44,518 bases of DNA from a bacterium (GTDB lineage: Bacteria; Patescibacteriota; Minisyncoccia; Phycocordibacterales; UBA9973): positions 1 through 44,518 of the forward strand of contig JBAXEA010000001.1 of the NCBI GenBank assembly GCA_037140655.1. Direction: 5' to 3'. Position numbers and translations under genes: made by a program. This document shows, in pieces, positions 4,600 through 44,365 of the stretch. The notes under the pieces were generated by a model. It was not told the origin of the DNA. It worked only from the letters and a program-made list of their open reading frames with translations, and did no database searches. Each line of letters starts with the position of its first letter. Positions within the stretch are counted from its first letter, which is position 1.

Positions 4600-4663
4600 C
4601 CCTGTAGTAGATTTTAGCAATATTAAAAATGTGCTATGCACATCGCCAAAATTCACTACGGGG
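4600..4663. repeat. Family-A structured palindromic element, copy A1
   Basis: CCCTGTAGTAGATTTTAG ... CCAAAATTCACTACGGGG. The outer stem encloses an internal ATGTGC-TAT-GCACAT hairpin. Intergenic, ending just before the tpiA -10 box. Confidence 0.8.
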
Positions 4664-4672
4664 TGTTATAAT
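4664..4672 (+). promoter_or_regulatory. Extended -10 box (TGtTATAAT), 6 nt upstream of the tpiA ATG (leaderless-type)
   Basis: TGTTATAAT-attctc-ATG(4679). The same TGnTAnnAT-N6-ATG architecture recurs at 10 or more genes in the window. Confidence 0.6.
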
Positions 4673-4678
4673 ATTCTC

Positions 4679-5440
4679 ATGTCTAAAAAAATTATTATAG
4701 GAAATTGGAAAATGAATCCGCTTACTAGTAAAGAAGCGGTAAAATTATTTACTGATATTGCAAAAAACTTAACTACCACTAAAAATGTGGATGTTGTTAT
4801 TTGTGCCCCATTTGTTTATTTAGAAAGTTTAAAGAAAATATCTAAAAAAATATCTTTAGGTACACAAGATGCTTTCTGGCAAGAGAAAGGTGCTTTTACT
4901 GGTGAGATTTCAGTAAAAATGCTTTCAAATATTGGTGTTAAGTATATAATTCTCGGCCATTCTGAAAGAAGATCATTAGGTGAAAATAATATTGATATAA
5001 ATAGAAAAATAAAAGCAGTACTTAGTGCTGGTCTTACACCTATAGTGTGCGTTGGTGATACAGAGAGAGACGAGAATCATGGATATTTCAATGTTGTAAA
5101 GAATCAAGTTGAAGAATGTTTGAATGGAATCAAAAAAGATTTGCTTGAGAAAATAATTGTTGCTTATGAACCAGTCTGGGCATTATCTACTACAATTCCT
5201 CGCAAGGATGCTACAGCAGAAGATTCACAAGAGATGGTAGTGTTCATTAAAAAAGTTCTTGCAGATAAATTTGGAGTGAAAACAAAAATGCCAAGAATTA
5301 TTTACGGTGGTTCAGCAAATGATAAAAATTGTGCAGATTTCCTAACTAACGGGGGAGTGGAAGGTTTGTTGCCTGGTGCTGCAAGTTTAGATCCAAAGAA
5401 ATTTATAAGTATTATTAACATAGCAGAACATATTATTTAA
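4679..5440 (+). CDS. tpiA: Triosephosphate isomerase
   Basis: MSKKIIIGNWKMN.., ..GHSERR.., ..AYEPVWA.. are canonical TIM motifs. The upstream part of the 4565 ORF translates the repeat element and is rejected. Confidence 0.95.
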   Translation: MSKKIIIGNWKMNPLTSKEAVKLFTDIAKNLTTTKNVDVVICAPFVYLESLKKISKKISLGTQDAFWQEKGAFTGEISVKMLSNIGVKYIILGHSERRSLGENNIDINRKIKAVLSAGLTPIVCVGDTERDENHGYFNVVKNQVEECLNGIKKDLLEKIIVAYEPVWALSTTIPRKDATAEDSQEMVVFIKKVLADKFGVKTKMPRIIYGGSANDKNCADFLTNGGVEGLLPGAASLDPKKFISIINIAEHII

Positions 5441-8468: not shown

Positions 8469-8480
8469 CTTTAAATGGAT

Positions 8481-8556
8481 CCCGAACGAAATTCTAGAAA
8501 TAGATTTTTACATAAGGGATTGGTCAATTTACTAAATTATTTAAATTTCGTACGGG
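8481..8556. repeat. Family-A-like palindromic element, divergent copy A2
   Basis: (GAT)CCCGAACGAAATT ... AATTTCGTACGGG(ATG). It shares the CCCG/CGGG clamp and the GGGATGG 3' flank with A4 and A3. The recJ ATG directly abuts the stem. Confidence 0.6.
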
Positions 8557-10218
8557 ATGGAAAAATATTCAGACATATTACGAACACTTTTTTTGGCTCG
8601 TGGTATAGAAAATGAGACTGATGCAGAGCTTTTTTTGAATGGAAATTATGAACGAGACTTTCATGATCCTTTTTTAATGCGTGATATGGAGAAAACCTGT
8701 GTTCGTATATATGAAGCTATGGAGGCGAATGAAAAAATTGTAATTTATTCTGACTATGATTGTGACGGTATTCCAGGTGCGGTGATAATGCATGATTTGT
8801 TTGAAAAAGTAGGTTATAAGAATTATGAAATTTATATTCCCGGAAGGAATAATGAAGGTTATGGTTTGAATATGGAAGCAATAGAAGAGTTTGCTAAAAA
8901 AGATGTGAAACTTTTGATAACTATAGATTTAGGAATAACTGCCATATCAGAAGTTCTCCAAGCGGAAGTCTACGGAATAGATGTGATAATCACAGACCAT
9001 CATATACCACACGAAAATCTTCCTCGCGCATATGCGATATTGAATCCGAAAGTAGATGATTATCCAGAAAAAATGTTATGTGGTGCTGGAGTTATTTTTA
9101 AATTGGTTCAAGGTTTTGTAAAAAAATACGGTGAATATTTTAAAATAAATAATGGTTGGGAAAAGTGGATGCTTGATATGGCAGGCCTTGCGACTTTGTC
9201 TGACATGGTTCCGCTCGTAGGGGAGAATAGAGTGATAGCACATTTTGGAATTAAAGTTTTGAGAAAATCTCCACGTCTTGGTTTGCAGAAACTTTTAGCA
9301 CAAATGAAAATAGATCAAAGATATTTAACTGAGGACGATGTTGGCTTTATGATTTCTCCTCGTTTAAATGCTGCGTCTCGTATGGACAATCCATTGCGTG
9401 CTTATGAACTTTTATCTACGACAGATGCAGTCGAAGCAGGGACATTGGCAACTCATTTAACGAAAATAAATGATGAAAGAAAATCAATCGTGGCTGGTAT
9501 TATGCGTGAAGTAAAAAAGAAATTTGAAACAAGAACATTAAATGAAATTATTGTTATTGGTAATCCAGCTTGGCGAGTGGGAGTGCTCGGACTTGTGGCA
9601 GGGAAGATTGCAGATGAATATGAGAAGACAGTTTTTGTCTGGGGGAAAGATGAGAATGAATGTATTAAGGGTTCATGTAGATCAAATGGTTCTATTTCCA
9701 TAGTAGAACTTATGACGAATGCGAGTGGATCGTTTTTAGAATTTGGTGGTCATGAGATGGCAGGCGGTTTTAGTGTTCATGCAGATAAAATTCATTATCT
9801 TGAAGAAGCACTTTTGGAATCTTTAAAGAAAGTAAAAAAAATACAAGGGAAGGAAAAAGAAAAAATAGATATCACTGGTGATCTTAGTTTGGTAAGTATG
9901 AAAAATTGGAAAGAAATAGAAAAACTTTCTCCATTTGGTTTAGCAAATCCAAAACCAATTTTTTCATTTCCAAATTTAAAAATTGAAAAGATTAAAAAAT
10001 TTGGTAAGAATGGTTCAGGAGAACATTTAGAAATTACATTTTCTGATGTTAATAATAAAAAGGCAGTAGCGATTTCTTTTTTCTCAAATCATGAATCTTT
10101 TTCTGTGCAAATAGAAGAAGGAAAGATGGTGAATCTTTTAGCTACTTTTGACCTGTCTCGTTTTCGTGGACGAGAAGAACTTCGTTTGAGAATTATAGAT
10201 ATATTAAGTACAATATAA
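8557..10218 (+). CDS. recJ: Single-stranded-DNA-specific exonuclease RecJ
   Basis: The DHH-family motifs ..YSDYDCDGI.. and ..ITDHHIP.. are present, followed by a DHHA1-like ..GGHEMAGG... 553 aa. Confidence 0.9.
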   Translation: MEKYSDILRTLFLARGIENETDAELFLNGNYERDFHDPFLMRDMEKTCVRIYEAMEANEKIVIYSDYDCDGIPGAVIMHDLFEKVGYKNYEIYIPGRNNEGYGLNMEAIEEFAKKDVKLLITIDLGITAISEVLQAEVYGIDVIITDHHIPHENLPRAYAILNPKVDDYPEKMLCGAGVIFKLVQGFVKKYGEYFKINNGWEKWMLDMAGLATLSDMVPLVGENRVIAHFGIKVLRKSPRLGLQKLLAQMKIDQRYLTEDDVGFMISPRLNAASRMDNPLRAYELLSTTDAVEAGTLATHLTKINDERKSIVAGIMREVKKKFETRTLNEIIVIGNPAWRVGVLGLVAGKIADEYEKTVFVWGKDENECIKGSCRSNGSISIVELMTNASGSFLEFGGHEMAGGFSVHADKIHYLEEALLESLKKVKKIQGKEKEKIDITGDLSLVSMKNWKEIEKLSPFGLANPKPIFSFPNLKIEKIKKFGKNGSGEHLEITFSDVNNKKAVAISFFSNHESFSVQIEEGKMVNLLATFDLSRFRGREELRLRIIDILSTI

Positions 10219-22905: not shown

Positions 22906-22917
22906 CTTTTTGCCTGT

Positions 22918-22947
22918 CCCGTTGAAATTTACTAATTTTTATTCGGG
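22918..22947. repeat. Short, degenerate possible relative of family A (A3)
   Basis: CCCGTTGAAATTTACTAATTTTTATTCGGG has the same CGGGATGG junction to a -10 box as A4. The stem is poor. Confidence 0.3.
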
Positions 22948-22948
22948 A

Positions 22949-22957
22949 TGGTAAAAT
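22949..22957 (+). promoter_or_regulatory. Extended -10 box (TGgTAAAAT), 6 nt upstream of the ATG at 22964
   Basis: TGGTAAAAT-agaggt-ATG. Confidence 0.55.
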
Positions 22958-22963
22958 AGAGGT

Positions 22964-23359
22964 ATGAAAACCATATTAGTTGATGCAGTGTATTGTTTCA
23001 TAATAAAGCAAGATGAAAATTTTGTGGTATTTCAAGATATGTATAGATTACTTGAAGCTTATCCAAATAACAAAATTGTCCTAACGGGTGCAAATGATGA
23101 GCAGAAAATTAAATTTGGGTTGGACAATATTCCATATAAATTTTTTACATTAAAACATAATCCAGAAAAGACAGATCCAAAATATTATGAAATTTTACTA
23201 GAAAATTTTAATCTTAAAAAAGATGATGTTATTTATTTTGAGCATGACATAAATGCAGTAAAGAGTGCTCAGTCTGTTGGAATAAATACTTATCATTATG
23301 ATGACAGTAAAAGAGATTTAGAAAGTTTAAAAAACTTTTTGGATGAAAATTTAAAATAG
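22964..23359 (+). CDS. Small HAD-superfamily-like protein with a degenerate motif I
   Basis: ..ILVDAVYCF.. sits in place of DxDxT, and ..VIYFEHDINAVKSAQSVGI.. resembles HAD motif IV. 131 aa. Weak call. Confidence 0.5.
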   Translation: MKTILVDAVYCFIIKQDENFVVFQDMYRLLEAYPNNKIVLTGANDEQKIKFGLDNIPYKFFTLKHNPEKTDPKYYEILLENFNLKKDDVIYFEHDINAVKSAQSVGINTYHYDDSKRDLESLKNFLDENLK

Positions 23360-25881: not shown

Positions 25882-25886
25882 AAGTT

Positions 25887-25930
25887 GCCCTACTCCCGGT
25901 TTAGGGCTAGCCCTAAACCGGGAGTAGGGC
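25887..25930. repeat. Family-B GC-rich palindrome, copy B1 (perfect 22+22 nt)
   Basis: GCCCTACTCCCGGTTTAGGGCT|AGCCCTAAACCGGGAGTAGGGC. It lies 5 nt after the upstream stop codon. Confidence 0.8.
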
Positions 25931-25944
25931 TAAATAATAAAAAT

Positions 25945-29362: not shown

Positions 29363-29388
29363 GTTTAGTTTCATAGGTTTGTGTGGTT

Positions 29389-29458
29389 CCCGTAGTAGAT
29401 TTTACTAAAGTAATTTTATAAAATTACGCACTTGTGCATTAGTAAAATTCACTACGGG
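29389..29458. repeat. Family-A structured palindromic element, copy A4 (best copy)
   Basis: CCCGTAGTAGATTTTACTAA | GTAATTTTATAAAATTAC | GCACTTGTGC | TTAGTAAAATTCACTACGGG. This gives a 20-bp outer stem plus two inner hairpins. Confidence 0.85.
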
Positions 29459-29459
29459 A

Positions 29460-29468
29460 TGGTAATAT
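29460..29468 (+). promoter_or_regulatory. Extended -10 box (TGgTAATAT), 6 nt upstream of the ATG at 29475
   Basis: TGGTAATAT-atttat-ATG. The box starts 2 nt after element A4. Confidence 0.6.
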
Positions 29469-29474
29469 ATTTAT

Positions 29475-30551
29475 ATGTTTGGAAAAAGTGATACAAAATA
29501 TATTTCCATTTCGACAGGGACGATGCTTCGTTTTATGCTTGTTTTGATTGGTATTTATTTGCTTTGGTTCCTTCGGGATCTGATGCTTGTTATTATCACT
29601 TCCATAGTCATATCTTCATTTGTCGAAGCATCTATTCCACGTTTTAAAAAATTAGGCATCGGTAGAGTCTTTGGTGTGGTTATCGTATACATAACTGGCA
29701 TTCTTGTTATTGCGGGTATGTTTTATTTATTTGCACCATTACTAATAACAGAAGTTTATAATTTCTCCTCATTTTTATCTTCGTATATTCCAAATAATCC
29801 ATTTATAACTTATTTCCAAAATGATGCATTTTCTGGTGCGAAGGATATTGTCTCTGGTCTTTCACAAAATCTTTCAATGGCGACATTATTTGCTACATCA
29901 AAAGCATTTATTTCAAATTTGTCTGGTGGATTTTTCCAAACTATATCTGTAGCTTTCGGTAGTATATTTAATTTCGGACTTATCATAATGTTGTCTTTTT
30001 ATTTATCTGTTCAAGAAAAAGGAGTAGAGAATTTTTTACGAATTGTTGTTCCTCTTAAAGAAGAAGAATATGTTATAGATTTATGGCAACGTTCACGTAG
30101 AAAGATTGCTCTTTGGTTAAAGGGCCAACTTCTTTTGGGTGTGCTTATAACTATTCTTACATATTTAGTTTTATCATTACTTGGCAATCAATATTCATTA
30201 CTATTGGCTATTATTGCAGGGGTTATGGAACTTGTTCCTTATGGTATTCTGATTGCTCTTGTCCCTGCTATTTCTTTTACATATCTTTCTGCTGGATTAT
30301 CTAGTGCATTAGTTGTAGCTGGAGCATATATCATAATTCATCAATTTGAAATATTCCTATTTTCACCTTTAGTTATTCGAAAGGTTGTTGGGCTTTCACC
30401 TATAGTAGTGATATTAGCGGCTGTTATCGGTTTTGAACTAGCTAGTGTTTGGGGTCTTGTGCTTGCTATTCCTGTTGCAGTATTTTTAATGGAATTAATT
30501 AGTGATGTTGAAAAACATAAAGCTATATTTAGAACAAATGATGGAAAATAA
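29475..30551 (+). CDS. AI-2E/PerM (UPF0118) family membrane transporter
   Basis: 358 aa with about 8 TM segments. The layout and C-terminal ..MELVPYG.. block are typical of the family. Confidence 0.75.
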   Translation: MFGKSDTKYISISTGTMLRFMLVLIGIYLLWFLRDLMLVIITSIVISSFVEASIPRFKKLGIGRVFGVVIVYITGILVIAGMFYLFAPLLITEVYNFSSFLSSYIPNNPFITYFQNDAFSGAKDIVSGLSQNLSMATLFATSKAFISNLSGGFFQTISVAFGSIFNFGLIIMLSFYLSVQEKGVENFLRIVVPLKEEEYVIDLWQRSRRKIALWLKGQLLLGVLITILTYLVLSLLGNQYSLLLAIIAGVMELVPYGILIALVPAISFTYLSAGLSSALVVAGAYIIIHQFEIFLFSPLVIRKVVGLSPIVVILAAVIGFELASVWGLVLAIPVAVFLMELISDVEKHKAIFRTNDGK

Positions 30552-40388: not shown

Positions 40389-40589
40389 ATGAAACAAGAT
40401 TATTTTTCAGCAAACAATATAAAACATATAGACTATAAAGATACAGAAATTTTAAAGAAATTTTTGAATCCAAATGGAAAGATAGTAGGCCACAAGAGAA
40501 CAGGCGTTACTTCAAAGAATCAAAGACAATTGGCTCTTGCCGTAAAGCATGCTCGATTCCTTGGGTTACTTCCATTCGTAGCTAGATAA
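40389..40589 (+). CDS. rpsR: 30S ribosomal protein S18
   Basis: ..IDYKDTEILKKFL..GKI..KRTGVTSKNQRQLALAVKHARFLGLLPF.. is present. The rpsF-ssb-rpsR order is classical. Confidence 0.95.
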   Translation: MKQDYFSANNIKHIDYKDTEILKKFLNPNGKIVGHKRTGVTSKNQRQLALAVKHARFLGLLPFVAR

Positions 40590-40591
40590 AT

Positions 40592-40656
40592 CCCGTAGTG
40601 AGTTTTGATGAAGCACGAAGTGCGTCTGAAAGACATCATCAAAATCTACTACCAGG
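40592..40656. repeat. Family-A structured palindromic element, copy A5 (inverted orientation)
   Basis: CCCGTAGTGAGTTTTGATGA ... TCATCAAAATCTACTACCAGG. Inner hairpins are GTCT-ttc-AGAC and GCAC-ttc-GTGC on the complement. It starts 2 nt after the rpsR stop. Confidence 0.8.
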
Positions 40657-40670
40657 ATAAATTTAAAAAT

Positions 40671-40712
40671 AAAGGCCGCCCTTCCGAAAGGAAGGGCGGC
40701 CTTTTGCTTTTT
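40671..40712 (+). terminator. Strong rho-independent terminator of the rpsF-ssb-rpsR operon
   Basis: GGCCGCCCTTCC-gaaa-GGAAGGGCGGCC followed by TTTTGCTTTTT. Confidence 0.85.
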
Positions 40713-43271: not shown

Positions 43272-43491
43272 TTTAAAAATTTAAATGTGTTTTTTTTGAA
43301 AATTGGTCTTCTCGCGAAACCCGACGTTCTCATTACACAAAAGAGTATAAAGAGCACACTAGAAAGAAGGGAACTTCCGTCCAAAGTGCTCTTTGTACCT
43401 AAAATTAAAAAAATGACATTAAAATGTCAAAAAACACTGATTTACAATAGTATATCATACTTTGGGAAAAAGTCAAGGTGTAATAGATTCG

Positions 43492-43535
43492 CCCCTAAAC
43501 CCGGCTTAGGGGGTTCCCCTAAGCCGGGTTTAGGG
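43492..43535. repeat. Family-B GC-rich palindrome, copy B2
   Basis: CCCCTAAACCCGGCTTAGGGG-gtt-CCCCTAAGCCGGGTTTAGGG. Confidence 0.8.
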
Positions 43536-43552
43536 ATATTTTTTTGGAAAAC

Positions 43553-43589: not shown

Positions 43590-44168
43590 CTAAACTCTCT
43601 CTACGTATTCACCTGTATCTGTGTTTACTCTTATCACGTCTCCTTCGTTTATGAACATTGGAGCAGTTAGTGTCGTTCCATTTTCCAATACGATAACTTT
43701 GACTCCACCTTTGGAGGTATCTCCTCGTACGGCTGGGGGAGCTTCTTTTACAAGAAATTCCATTTTGACTGGTAGGGAAACTTTTATGGTAACTTCTTCT
43801 CCGTCATTATCCCATACAAGTGCTGTGACTATGCCATTTGTTTTTAAGAATTTACCGGCTGTTCCAATGAGTGCAGCGTCCAATTTAAATCTATTTGATT
43901 TTTCTTCTGGATCACAGAACCAATATTCTCCTTTGTTTTGATACAAGAACATAACATCCTTTTTATCAATATCTGCTTCCTCTGCCTTGTCAGAAACATG
44001 GAAAGTGGCAGGGAATACTTTTCCAGAAATCAAACTTTTAAGTTTTACTTGGTTTTGAGGTTTTCTTTGCTGAGTTCTAGCGACGTGGGATTCTACCACT
44101 TCGCAAGGTTCACCACTGTATAAAATTACTTTCTTCTCTCTTATTGCACTATATTCTAATGTTGCCAT
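43590..44168 (-). CDS. efp: Translation elongation factor P
   Basis: ..GEPCEVVESHV..VKLKSLISG.., ..FLYQNKGEYWFCD.. and the C-terminal OB domains are present. The loop that normally carries PGKG reads ARTQQRKPQN. Confidence 0.95.
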   Translation of the reverse strand: MATLEYSAIREKKVILYSGEPCEVVESHVARTQQRKPQNQVKLKSLISGKVFPATFHVSDKAEEADIDKKDVMFLYQNKGEYWFCDPEEKSNRFKLDAALIGTAGKFLKTNGIVTALVWDNDGEEVTIKVSLPVKMEFLVKEAPPAVRGDTSKGGVKVIVLENGTTLTAPMFINEGDVIRVNTDTGEYVERV

Positions 44169-44209
44169 AGATTTTTAATTTTAAACGATTAATAATCTTA
44201 TCCTAACAC

Positions 44210-44281
44210 CCGGTAGTAGATCTTGGCAAGTTAAATTATTAATTTAAGTACTTTGTACATTACCAAGATTCACTACCGGGT
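44210..44281. repeat. Family-A structured palindromic element, copy A6
   Basis: CCCGGTAGTAGATCTTGGCA | TTAAATTattaAATTTAA | GTACtttGTAC | TACCAAGATTCACTACCGGG. Confidence 0.85.
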
Positions 44282-44313
44282 AACAGAAAAAAACATAAAA
44301 TCAAACCTAACCG

Positions 44314-44350
44314 AAACCGGGTTTAGGGCTTTGGCCCTAAACCCGGTTTC
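44314..44350. repeat. Family-B GC-rich palindrome, copy B3
   Basis: GAAACCGGGTTTAGGGC-tttg-GCCCTAAACCCGGTTTC. It lies 15 nt downstream of the recA stop (- strand). Confidence 0.8.
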
Positions 44351-44365
44351 TGGAATTATTTATTT

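What the first reader, a model, noticed from the sequence alone, without database searches (positions are those of the whole stretch)
29389..29458. Family A: 65-75-nt structured palindromic intergenic elements with compensatory stem changes
Seen: five clear copies are present.
- A1 4600-4663
- A4 29389-29458
- A6 44210-44281
- A5 40592-40656 (inverted)
- A2 8481-8556 (divergent)
- A3 22918-22947 is a possible stub.

Shared architecture:
- A CCCG/CGGG clamp.
- GTAGTAGAT opposite ATTCACTAC, giving the same A.C mismatch plus G.T wobble in A1, A4, A5 and A6.
- A distal outer stem that differs between copies yet stays complementary: TTTTACTAA/TTAGTAAAA, TCTTGGCA/TACCAAGA, TTTTGATGA/TCATCAAAA.
- Two inner hairpins, the second always of the form G(C/T)AC-TTx-G(T)GC (GCACttGTGC, GCACttcGTGC, GTACtttGTAC, GTGCtatGCAC).

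All copies are strictly intergenic. A1 and A4 (and A3) end 0-2 nt before an extended -10 box of a leaderless gene, which is where a -35/UP element would sit. A5 follows rpsR, and A6 lies between recA and efp.

Inference: the covariation argues that the hairpin itself is under selection. It could be a structured RNA or DNA element, a terminator/insulator, a regulator-binding cruciform, or a REP/MITE-like element recognised by a Y1-type transposase. Five copies in 44 kb is a high density.
Basis: partly seen in the sequence, partly recalled or inferred. Interest (0 to 1): 0.65.

Follow-up and report, generated by a model that had tools for sequence, protein, structure and literature searches.

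The report
Tiny hairpin transposons beside promoters
The repeated 65-75-base hairpins are copies of a very small, previously undescribed mobile DNA element found across one large group of ultra-small (CPR/Patescibacteria) bacteria, and about half of the copies sit exactly against the upstream edge of a gene's promoter.

Summary
The window holds four clear Family A copies: 4600-4663, 29388-29459, 40591-40656 (inverted) and 44209-44280. Copies A2 and A3 belong to sister families.

A covariance model and two collection scans found about 130 further copies. Every copy from a taxonomically labelled genome is in a Patescibacteria MAG, apart from one MAG labelled Dehalococcoidia and a few unclassified ones. 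None was found among 116 viral pattern hits, and Rfam has no match.

The elements are best read as miniature inverted-repeat transposable elements (MITEs):
- The arms are about 21 bp and act as terminal inverted repeats (YCCN-GTAGTAGATTTTGGCAT / ATGCCAAAATTCACTAC-NGGR).
- About 80% of copies have a 4-5 bp target-site duplication of the form TNNA or TNNNA, against about 15% in controls.
- Close relatives carry clean empty sites at three window positions and at a fourth locus.
- Interiors are unrelated between copies.

The stem covariation is real, but it does not show RNA-level selection. Orthologous and window copies show uncompensated decay.

One result was unexpected. In 55 of 112 copies, one end abuts a sigma-70 promoter at offset 0 or +1. 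The duplication there is the first bases of the -35 box (TTGAC) or of an extended -10 (TGNTA) of a leaderless gene. Sister families sit on start codons (ATGRA).

No cognate transposase was found. The termini and duplications resemble IS1380/piggyBac, which is a lead, not a test.

The parts
4600..4663 (+). Family A copy A1 (64 nt).
   Evidence: Model score 62.8 bits, E = 1.9e-16. Folds at -25.8 kcal/mol, z = -5.4. The inner stem has mismatches. The left duplication copy has decayed; the orthologous copy in L065 has an intact TGTTA/TGTTA duplication.
4664..4672 (+). Extended -10 TGTTATAAT, directly abutting A1. The tpiA ATG is at 4679, 6 nt after the -10, so the gene is leaderless.
   Evidence: Sequence, Pfam TIM hit, offset analysis.
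29388..29459 (+). Family A copy A4 (72 nt). This is the finding's focal copy.
   Evidence: Model score 66.7 bits, E = 1.3e-17. Folds at -29.0 kcal/mol, z = -8.2. The site is filled in L122. It is empty in L121, L124, L126, L123 and L125.
29384..29387 (+). Left copy of the A4 target-site duplication (TGGT; TGGTA in the 90% relative L122).
29460..29468 (+). Right duplication copy TGGT(A), which is the start of the extended -10 TGGTAATAT. The AI-2E transporter ATG is at 29475 (leaderless).
   Evidence: The same promoter is present as a single copy in relatives that lack the element.
40591..40656 (-). Family A copy A5 (66 nt). It lies between the rpsR stop codon and the intrinsic terminator at 40671-40704.
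   Evidence: Model score 56.6 bits. The duplication is ATAAA at 40586-40590 and 40657-40661 and includes the rpsR stop codon. Relatives L123, L124 and L125 have a single TAAA and no element. The terminator was called.
44209..44280 (+). Family A copy A6 (72 nt), upstream of efp, which is on the minus strand.
   Evidence: Model score 65.9 bits. The duplication is TAACA at 44204-44208 and 44281-44285. The site is empty in L123 (ttcTGTTAGTATgacaatATG) and in L125.
44200..44208 (-). Extended -10 TGTTAGGAT of efp, abutting A6. The element's own TTGCCA (44229-44224) lies 18 nt upstream and acts as a -35-like box.
   Evidence: The promoter scan lists TTGCCA-18-TAGGAT with a TG.
8480..8556 (+). A2, a member of a sister family (arms TCCCGAACGAAATT / AATTTCGTACGGG). 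Its duplication is ATGGA (8475-8479 and 8557-8561). It is inserted between the leaderless promoter TGATATAAT and the recJ ATG.
   Evidence: Not detected by the Family A model. Sequence. RecJ domains. Related copies occur at L123 12520-12587 and L249 4629-4695.
22917..22948 (+). A3, a 32-nt mini hairpin with a TCCCG...CGGGA clamp. It is probably a decayed mini-member of the TCCCGTTAGAAAT sister family. It abuts the extended -10 TGGTAAAAT (22949-22957), and the ATG is at 22964.
   Evidence: (no model hit). Comparable 30-37-nt minis occur nested in other copies (L250, L312).

Best explanation
Family A is a family of ultra-short, non-autonomous DNA transposons (foldback-type MITEs).

Each copy consists of two roughly 21-bp terminal inverted repeats, 5'-YCCN GTAGTAGATTTTGGCAT ... 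ATGCCAAAATTCACTAC NGGR-3'. The two arms always differ at the same two positions (AG versus GA). Between them lies a short filler, usually 20-40 nt and often self-complementary. The filler can range from almost nothing to about 100 nt.

Shown:
- The elements carry no gene.
- Insertion duplicates 4-5 bp of target (TNNA or TNNNA).
- Presence and absence vary between close relatives, and the empty sites are clean.
- The family occurs across Paceibacteria/Parcubacteria-type Patescibacteria.

Inferred:
- A transposase supplied in trans moves them. A DDE/DDD enzyme is inferred from inverted repeats plus target duplication. The CCC...GGG termini and the T...A duplications point to an IS1380/piggyBac-like enzyme.
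- The mode is probably cut-and-paste. Copies within one genome have saturated, unrelated interiors, yet their duplications are intact and their sites are polymorphic. That pattern suggests old element lineages at young sites.
- The hairpin potential and the stem covariation follow mainly from the two ends having to match one enzyme. Imperfect hairpins may also be corrected towards perfect ones by template switching within the strand. Neither requires an RNA function.

Surviving insertions lie where the target duplication regenerates a functional motif. These sites are the first bases of a -35 box (TTGAC), of an extended -10 (TGNTA) of leaderless genes, or a stop codon. In sister families the site is a start codon (ATGRA). 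The downstream gene therefore keeps its promoter or start codon.

Once in place, the hairpin sits between the upstream gene's stop codon and the next promoter. There it may act as a 3' RNA hairpin, or may supply a weak -35-like TTGCCA. Neither effect was tested.
For: Inverted repeats and family definition:
- Alignment of 47 copies and model R1.
- 53 copies in the window plus genome loci, and 73 or more further copies in metagenome loci.

Target-site duplication:
- At least 4 nt of flanking direct repeat in 44 of 53 copies, against 17% for shuffled flank pairing.
- Replicated in the metagenome set: 47 of 59, against 14%.
- In the flank logo, position 1 is T in 75-81% of copies and position 4 is A in 56%.

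Empty and filled sites:
- A4: the window and L122 are filled (TGGT[A]-element-TGGTA). L121, L124 and L126 carry a single TGGTAWTAT.
- A6: filled with TGTTA-element-TGTTA. L123 and L125 are empty.
- A5: ATAAA duplicated in the window, single in L123, L124 and L125.
- L001 is filled at TTGACA-N16-TATAAT. L363 (92% relative) and L364 (84%) are empty.
- L039 carries an element at the A4 site with a different duplication (TGCTA), which indicates an independent insertion.

Other signs of mobility:
- Nested insertions with their own duplication (L250, L312) and an insertion in a tRNA-Ile fragment with TTAG.
- Five relatives (98 kb) have no canonical copy, against four copies in this 44.5-kb window.
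- Interiors are unrelated: 40-78% identity within a genome. Variants of 129-143 nt share only the arms.
- Decay without compensation is seen in L122, A1 and A5.

Promoter edges:
- 31 of 53 and 24 of 59 copies have a promoter motif anchored at offset 0 or +1, and almost none at other offsets.
- Among 26 flanks starting with TTG, TANNNT follows at a spacer of 16 (10 cases) or 17 (9 cases), against 0-2 at any other spacing.
- 13 of 29 copies have a start codon 6-9 nt after the -10.

Exclusions:
- No Rfam match.
- Not called as terminators.
- 0 of 116 viral pattern hits are true copies.

Termini and duplication resemble the piggyBac and IS1380 superfamilies:
- piggyBac has CCC/GGG termini and a TTAA duplication, and IS1380 transposases are its distant prokaryotic relatives (PMC10140906).
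- ISEcp1 starts with CC and has TCATA immediately outside its left end.
Against: - No autonomous parent or cognate transposase was found. There was no solo arm next to a transposase. No long-range repeat pair carried these arms. The window has no transposase domain. ISEcp1 transposase has no homologue among 2508 ORF segments of the held loci.
- The sampling was small, at about 0.8 Mb of fragments.
- Stem positions 17-21 take all four pair types yet stay paired. That is more than a sequence-reading transposase obviously requires.
- The AG/GA asymmetry is conserved across the whole clade, which hints that a folded single strand is recognised.
- An element of 37-75 bp is very short for two ends to be brought together in double-stranded DNA.
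- Cut-and-paste movement and any effect on transcription are inferred only. No RNA data cover the organism.
Confidence: 0.8

Rival explanations
1. The element is primarily a structured RNA: a cis-acting 3' stabiliser or terminator, an insulator, or a small RNA. Its hairpin is maintained by selection at each site, and mobility is incidental or ancient.
For: - Folds are very stable (z down to -8.2).
- Covariation is strong.
- The mismatch plus wobble is conserved.
- Inner hairpins recur: 28 of 53 copies have two.
- The position just after stop codons and before promoters would suit insulation.
Against: - The elements occur in both orientations relative to flanking genes.
- Interiors are unrelated and lengths run from 37 to 143 nt.
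- There is no T tract, and the terminator scan does not call them, whereas the genuine terminators next to them are GC-rich hairpins with T tracts.
- Insertions are recent and polymorphic.
- Substitutions go uncompensated in orthologous and window copies.
- No Rfam family matches.
Confidence: 0.08
2. The element is a REPIN-like doublet of REP sequences. A RAYT (Y1/HUH) transposase would recognise the folded single strand and move it.
For: - Each arm starts with GTAG after the clamp. GTAG is the conserved REP tetranucleotide; this rests on my own knowledge of REP/RAYT work.
- The architecture is two inverted units forming one long imperfect hairpin.
- The asymmetric mismatch is conserved.
- The size is very small.
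Against: - 4-5 bp target duplications of variable sequence flank about 80% of copies, and matched empty sites exist. HUH/Y1 transposition (IS200/IS605, RAYT) does not duplicate the target.
- No Y1 domain was found in the window's ORFs.
Confidence: 0.05
3. The element is a palindromic operator or cruciform bound by a host regulator or nucleoid protein. It would be kept next to promoters because it regulates them.
For: - The arms are conserved across genera while the interiors drift.
- 55 of 112 copies abut the -35 or extended -10 exactly.
- There is a moderate orientation bias at -35 promoters: 28 versus 11, p = 0.009.
- The arm supplies TTGCCA 18 nt upstream of some -10 boxes.
Against: - Promoters of the same genes work without the element in relatives.
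- About half the copies are not at recognisable promoters. They lie after stop codons, in a tRNA fragment, nested in each other or in tandem arrays.
- The flanking genes share no common function.
- Target duplications show that the position results from insertion.
Confidence: 0.05

Closest known systems
Bacterial and archaeal MITEs (for example Neisseria Correia elements, pneumococcal RUP, Sulfolobus SM1 of about 79 bp). Named from my own knowledge.
   Same: They are non-coding and dispersed in many copies. They have terminal inverted repeats, short target-site duplications and hairpin potential. They lie between genes, sometimes touching promoters. They are presumed to be moved in trans.
   Different: - Family A is shorter, at 60-80 bp with minis of 30-37 bp.
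- Copies within one genome share only the arms, not a common interior.
- A fixed two-base asymmetry between the arms is conserved across a whole class-level clade.
- Half of the copies abut a promoter motif with the duplication inside that motif.
- No parent insertion sequence is known.
IS1380 family (ISEcp1) and eukaryotic piggyBac transposons
   Same: - The termini start with CC(C) and end with (G)GG.
- The duplication is 4 bp (piggyBac TTAA) or 5 bp; ISEcp1 has TCATA immediately outside its left end in pC15-1a (its 5-bp duplication is from my own knowledge). Both have a T...A outline, like the TNNA/TNNNA seen here.
- piggyBac excises precisely, which would fit the clean empty sites.
   Different: - Beyond CC, the arm sequences do not resemble the ISEcp1 repeats.
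- No IS1380-like transposase was found in the held Patescibacteria DNA.
- The link is a resemblance, not a demonstrated relationship.
REP / REPIN elements moved by RAYT transposases
   Same: Both are short extragenic palindromes. GTAG lies next to the stem. Two inverted units form one long imperfect hairpin. Density is high in intergenic DNA.
   Different: REP/REPIN insertion leaves no target duplication. Family A leaves 4-5 bp. No RAYT gene was seen.
Promoter-proximal 'safe-haven' integration by eukaryotic elements (yeast Ty1/Ty3 at Pol III genes, Tf1 at Pol II promoters). From my own knowledge.
   Same: In a compact genome, insertions concentrate at a fixed position just upstream of promoters, where they do little harm.
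   Different: Those are retrotransposons, tethered by known protein contacts. Here the cause is not established. It could be a sequence preference for TTGA/TGNTA, recognition of promoter complexes, or survival bias.

Membership tests
MITE (non-autonomous transposon with inverted repeats) | Terminal inverted repeats | tested here: met
   The arms are about 21 bp and 95.8% paired across 47 copies.
MITE (non-autonomous transposon with inverted repeats) | Target-site duplication of fixed short length and variable sequence | tested here: met
   44 of 53 and 47 of 59 copies have at least 4 nt of direct repeat, against 14-17% in controls. The pattern is TNNA/TNNNA.
MITE (non-autonomous transposon with inverted repeats) | Filled and empty sites in related genomes | tested here: met
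   Shown for A4, A5, A6 and L001.
MITE (non-autonomous transposon with inverted repeats) | Small, non-coding, many dispersed copies | tested here: met
   Copies are 37-143 nt. There are four in the window and about 130 in the fetched loci.
MITE (non-autonomous transposon with inverted repeats) | An autonomous element with the same ends that encodes the transposase | tested here: inconclusive
   None was found in about 0.8 Mb of held fragments. Whole genomes could not be scanned.
IS1380 / piggyBac-derived element | CC(C)...(G)GG termini and a 4-5 bp T...A duplication | tested here: met
   Compared with ISEcp1 and with piggyBac as described in PMC10140906.
IS1380 / piggyBac-derived element | Arm sequence related to a known family member, or a family transposase in the host genomes | tested here: not met
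   Only the terminal CC is shared with ISEcp1. phmmer with ISEcp1 transposase found nothing in 2508 ORF segments. The sample was small.
REP / REPIN with RAYT | Palindromic unit with an adjacent conserved GTAG | tested here: met
   GTAG follows the clamp on both arms.
REP / REPIN with RAYT | Insertion without target duplication (HUH single-strand mechanism) | tested here: not met
   Duplications and matched empty sites are present.
REP / REPIN with RAYT | A RAYT (Y1 transposase) gene in the genome | tested here: inconclusive
   None was found among the window ORFs scanned with Pfam. The rest of the genome is not available.
Curated structured RNA family (Rfam 15) | Match at the family's gathering score | tested here: not met
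   There were 0 matches at gathering score. The only sub-threshold hits were generic hairpin matches to miRNA precursors.
Intrinsic (rho-independent) terminator | GC-rich stem followed by a T tract | tested here: not met
   None of the four copies was called. The neighbouring GC-rich hairpins were called.

The most novel reading that the evidence does not exclude
These elements and their sister families have evolved to aim at the upstream edges of the signals that define a gene's 5' end. Those signals are the -35 box, the extended -10 of leaderless genes, and the start codon. Because the target duplication rebuilds the signal, this would be a 'safe-haven' strategy for a transposon living in a genome with almost no spare DNA. 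Alternatively, they recognise DNA bound or distorted by RNA polymerase. Some copies may since have been co-opted as promoter-proximal insulators or as donors of a -35-like box.
Probability: 0.3. Interest if true: 0.8.

Novelty: new variant of a known kind. Interest (0 to 1): 0.62.

Why it matters
Patescibacteria (CPR) genomes are tiny, dense and usually described as poor in mobile DNA.

This work points to a clade-wide superfamily of very small transposons that survive by landing exactly on the boundaries of promoters and start codons. If that holds, it matters in four ways:
- It shows how mobile DNA can persist in extremely streamlined genomes.
- Each insertion marks a promoter edge, so the copies give a free map of promoters and leaderless starts in organisms that cannot be cultured.
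- It warns annotators that these hairpins are not RNA genes or terminators.
- If the aiming is real, it would be a bacterial counterpart of promoter-targeted integration, which so far is known mainly from yeast retrotransposons.

The unknown transposase may be a small prokaryotic relative of piggyBac. Finding it would be of practical interest.

Tried and rejected
- **Rfam.** Neither the gathering threshold nor a permissive E-value gave a family.
- **Transcripts.** The two metatranscriptome runs from the same sample hold nothing from this organism.
- **Read or contig-level insertion polymorphism in lake metagenomes.** The contigs were too fragmented and showed no joints at the elements.
- **Viral contigs.** 116 pattern hits were fetched and none is a true copy.
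- **Search for the parent element.** Solo arms in the loci were chance hits in unrelated genes, truncated copies or nested copies. Long-range inverted repeats turned up only unrelated pairs, for example L087 5983-7156, which encloses a 285-aa ORF that I did not characterise further. L281 has a solo arm, but it is followed by a kinase-like gene and a nucleotidyltransferase-like gene, not a transposase. phmmer with ISEcp1 transposase found nothing.
- **Literature.** No paper in the library describes these elements or their arm sequence.
- **IS200/IS605-type reading.** I considered a fixed cleavage tetranucleotide, prompted by the recurrent TCAA. I rejected it because the flanking repeats vary between copies and do not covary with the clamp.
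- **Tn3-type origin.** I considered this because of the 5-bp duplication. I rejected it because Tn3 ends read GGGG inward, whereas these read CCCC (Tn3 detail from my own knowledge).
- **Generic promoter scan.** The window region is not enriched over shuffles (70 sites against 81 expected). The promoter claim therefore rests on anchored offsets, the spacing control and conservation in relatives, not on that scan.
Full report
**What is in the window**

The window has 32% G+C. It encodes housekeeping genes typical of a Nomurabacteria-like member of the Patescibacteria. These include pilus and secretion proteins, TIM, PGK, RecJ, RNase H, ComEC, SHMT, several tRNA synthetases, RecO, an M16 peptidase, an AI-2E transporter, TatD, S18 and EF-P, and by synteny with relatives S6 and SSB. 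No transposase domain was found.

Syntenic relatives and the best DNA matches are Nomurabacteria and Paceibacterota MAGs. The sequence occurs in lake-water metagenomes.

**Checking the observation**

Four fold as long hairpins, three of them with a three-way junction, far more stably than shuffles.

I aligned 47 copies and built covariance model R1 from the alignment. With filters off, the model finds exactly four significant copies in the window:
- 29388-29459 (+)
- 44209-44280 (+)
- 4600-4663 (+)
- 40591-40656 (-)

A2 and A3 are not detected. They carry different arms and belong to sister families.

The clamp, the GTAGTAGAT / TTCACTAC pairing with one mismatch and one wobble, and the variable but complementary distal stem are all confirmed. 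Counting pairs on the alignment gives 95.8% paired cells. Eleven of 20 pairs have changes on both sides, and no shuffle out of 500 reaches the observed values.

**Distribution**

I scanned one genome per species for GTAGTAGAT-N30-60-TTCACTAC. The scan returned 120 stretches. About 45 are true copies with the full stem.

All taxonomically assigned true copies lie in Patescibacteria MAGs: Nomurabacteria, Zambryskibacteria, Wolfebacteria, Liptonbacteria, Nealsonbacteria, 'Paceibacterota', and bins labelled Saccharibacteria. The exceptions are one bin labelled Dehalococcoidia and four labelled only 'bacterium'. The remaining stretches are chance matches in other phyla and do not fold.

The same scan of viral contigs gave 116 chance matches and no true copy. 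A metagenome scan with a single-arm pattern gave many more copies. Rfam has no matching family. The paper library holds nothing on these elements.

**They are mobile elements with target-site duplications**

Nearly every copy is flanked by a short direct repeat of variable sequence. At least 4 nt match in 44 of 53 copies, against 17% when left and right flanks are paired at random. The independent metagenome set gives 47 of 59 against 14%. The first base outside either end is T in 75-81% of copies, and the fourth is A in 56%. The duplication therefore reads TNNA or TNNNA.

Matched empty sites settle the point.

| Site | Filled | Empty in relatives |
|---|---|---|
| AI-2E transporter (A4) | window: gtgTGGT-[72 nt]-TGGTAATATatttatATG; L122 (90% relative): TGGTA-[72 nt]-TGGTA | L121, L124, L126: a single tgTGGTAWTAT...ATG; L123, L125 also lack the element |
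| efp (A6) | TGTTA-[72 nt]-TGTTAGGAT | L123: ttcTGTTAGTATgacaatATG; L125 |
| rpsR (A5) | ATAAA duplicated; it contains the stop codon | L123, L124, L125: single TAAA |
| prs, in L001 | TTGA(C) either side of the element, then TTGACA-N16-TATAAT | L363 (92%), L364 (84%): the promoter alone |

L039, a 68% relative, has an element at the A4 site with TGCTA on both sides. That is best read as a second, independent insertion.

Other evidence for mobility:
- Elements are nested inside other elements, each with its own duplication (L250, L312).
- One element lies in a duplicated tRNA-Ile fragment with TTAG.
- Tandem arrays share one TCAA.
- Five relatives totalling 98 kb hold no canonical copy, while this 44.5-kb window holds four.

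**What the covariation means**

The conserved module is the pair of roughly 21-bp arms. Interiors are not conserved. Copies within one genome are 40-78% alike in the interior. Variants of 129-143 nt share only the arms. Minis of 30-37 nt have almost no interior.

Copies also decay without compensation. The L122 orthologue has lost the G of GTAG. A1 and A5 have stem mismatches.

So the two-sided changes between copies are differences between element lineages whose two ends must match. They are not repairs made at each site. Two things still look odd for a simple sequence-reading transposase:
- Stem positions 17-21 take all four pair types yet stay paired.
- The AG/GA asymmetry of the arms is almost invariant. 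39 copies are (AG,GA) and none is (AG,AG), although the partner arm was free to vary.

A folded single strand may be recognised at some step. I could not test this.

Interiors are saturated, but duplications are intact and sites are polymorphic. Together this suggests old element lineages that keep moving, that is, cut-and-paste transposition. This is an inference.

**The unexpected part: position relative to promoters**

I anchored a promoter pattern at each offset from each element end. The pattern was either TTGNNN-N16-18-TANNNT or TGNTANNNT.

| Set | Copies with the pattern at offset 0 | at offset +1 | at offsets 2-19 (matches) |
|---|---|---|---|
| Genome set (53 copies) | 24 | 7 | 5 |
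| Metagenome set (59 copies) | 20 | 4 | 11 |

Further controls support that these are real promoters:
- Among 26 flanks that start with TTG, TANNNT follows at a spacer of 16 (10 cases) or 17 (9 cases), and 0-2 times at any other spacing.
- In 13 of 29 cases a start codon follows 6-9 nt after the -10, which marks a leaderless gene.
- The same promoters stand alone in relatives that lack the element.

The duplication is therefore the first 4-5 bases of the -35 box (TTGAC) or of the extended -10 (TGNTA), and it rebuilds the motif next to its gene. TTGA/TCAA makes up 72 of 258 flanks. Intergenic TTGAC sites in these loci are followed by a -10 in 30% of cases, against 77% (20 of 26 TTG-anchored flanks) next to elements.

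Elements show a moderate orientation bias at -35 promoters: 28 versus 11, p = 0.009.

When an element lies against an extended -10, its arm can place TTGCCA 18 nt upstream. The promoter scan picks this up for efp.

**Sister families**

The same loci carry other small hairpin elements that share the YCCCGT...ACGGGR termini and a TNNA-type duplication but have different arms, such as CCCGTTAGARAT and TCCCGTACKAAAT.

In 9 of 17 of these copies, the junction ATG opens a real gene. Examples are the N-termini of S8, L24, a translational GTPase, a glycosyltransferase, TatD and RecJ. The duplication is therefore (A)TGRA at the start codon, including start codons inside a ribosomal-protein operon.

A2 in the window is one of these. 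ATGGA is duplicated, and the element separates recJ's ATG from its leaderless promoter TGATATAAT by 82 nt.

Because operon-internal start codons are hit as well, recognition of promoter complexes cannot be the whole story. Three factors together explain much of the pattern:
- a family-specific sequence preference (TTGA for Family A, TGAA for the sister family);
- almost no spare DNA in these genomes;
- rebuilding of the motif by the duplication.

Whether the preferences evolved because these sites are safe remains open.

**Comparison with known systems**

| Family considered | Result |
|---|---|
| MITE | Every defining feature met except a known parent |
| REP/REPIN with RAYT | GTAG and the doublet hairpin fit; the defining absence of target duplication does not |
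| Intrinsic terminator | Not met; no T tract |
| Rfam families | Not met |
| IS1380 / piggyBac | Termini and duplication resemble these |

On the last row: piggyBac has CCC/GGG ends and a TTAA duplication, and IS1380 transposases are its distant prokaryotic relatives (PMC10140906). ISEcp1 starts with CC and is flanked by TCATA on its left side. However, the arms are not alike beyond CC, and no such transposase was found in the small sample of Patescibacteria DNA held. This is a lead, not a membership.

**Verdict**

- The 'structured element under selection' reading is mostly replaced by 'ultra-short MITE'.
- The Y1/RAYT idea is not supported.
- The family appears undescribed.
- It is widespread in one large CPR lineage.
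- It has an unusual, statistically solid association with the exact upstream edge of promoters, whose cause is still unresolved.

Noticed in passing
window 25884-25933, 43490-43538, 44310-44353: These are GC-rich, near-perfect palindromes sharing CCGG(T/C)TTAGGG, in a genome of 32% G+C. Two of them, and a further hairpin at 40671-40704, are called as two-way intrinsic terminators with T tracts. They form a second hairpin family, distinct from Family A. One metagenome contig folds back on itself at 25887-25931, which is probably an assembly artefact of the palindrome.
   Followed up: partly
window 8475-8561 (A2 and recJ start): A sister-family element duplicated ATGGA and now separates the recJ start codon (8557) from its leaderless promoter TGATATAAT by 82 nt. 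The promoter-proximal ATG (8475) is out of frame with recJ. How recJ is still expressed is unclear.
   Followed up: partly
L017, L041, L058, L084, L088, L105, L252, L291, L326, L338, L361 and others (coordinates): A sister family has arms YCCCGTTAGARAT...ATYTCTAACGGGR, lengths of 30-140 nt and duplications of TGAA/TTCA/TCCA. In 9 of 17 sister-family copies (this family plus the TCCCGTAC type) the junction ATG is the start codon of a real gene. These include rpsH and rplX inside the ribosomal-protein operon. In L088 a 15-codon decoy reading frame ends inside the element, 20 nt before the L24 start.
   Followed up: partly
window 44160-44208 compared with L123 and L125: In relatives efp is leaderless, with an ATG 6 nt after TGTTAGTAT or TGCTAGTAT. 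In the window that position reads ATT, and the efp ORF starts 31 nt after the -10. The gene seems to have acquired a short leader here.
   Followed up: no
L026 3960-4183: A truncated duplicate of the 5' half of tRNA-Ile(TAT) sits just upstream of the intact gene. It carries a Family A element in its D-loop, with a TTAG duplication.
   Followed up: partly
L300 2876-2892 and the downstream sequence: A solo arm ends in ...ATTTTGG and runs straight into TATACT. This forms TGGTATACT 8 nt upstream of what looks like a tRNA-Leu(CAG)-like gene (read by eye; not checked with ARAGORN). A truncated element may be providing the TG of an extended -10.
   Followed up: no
L087 5983-7156: A pair of long inverted repeats (at least 33, 21 and 19 bp, about 1.1 kb apart) encloses a 285-aa ORF of unknown function. 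It lies next to a Family A copy and is a different, larger element.
   Followed up: no
L001 compared with L363: Where L001 carries the element, about 80 nt of spacer between the prs stop codon and the promoter, present in the 92% relative, is missing. This may mean the hairpin has replaced the ancestral 3' region of prs.
   Followed up: no
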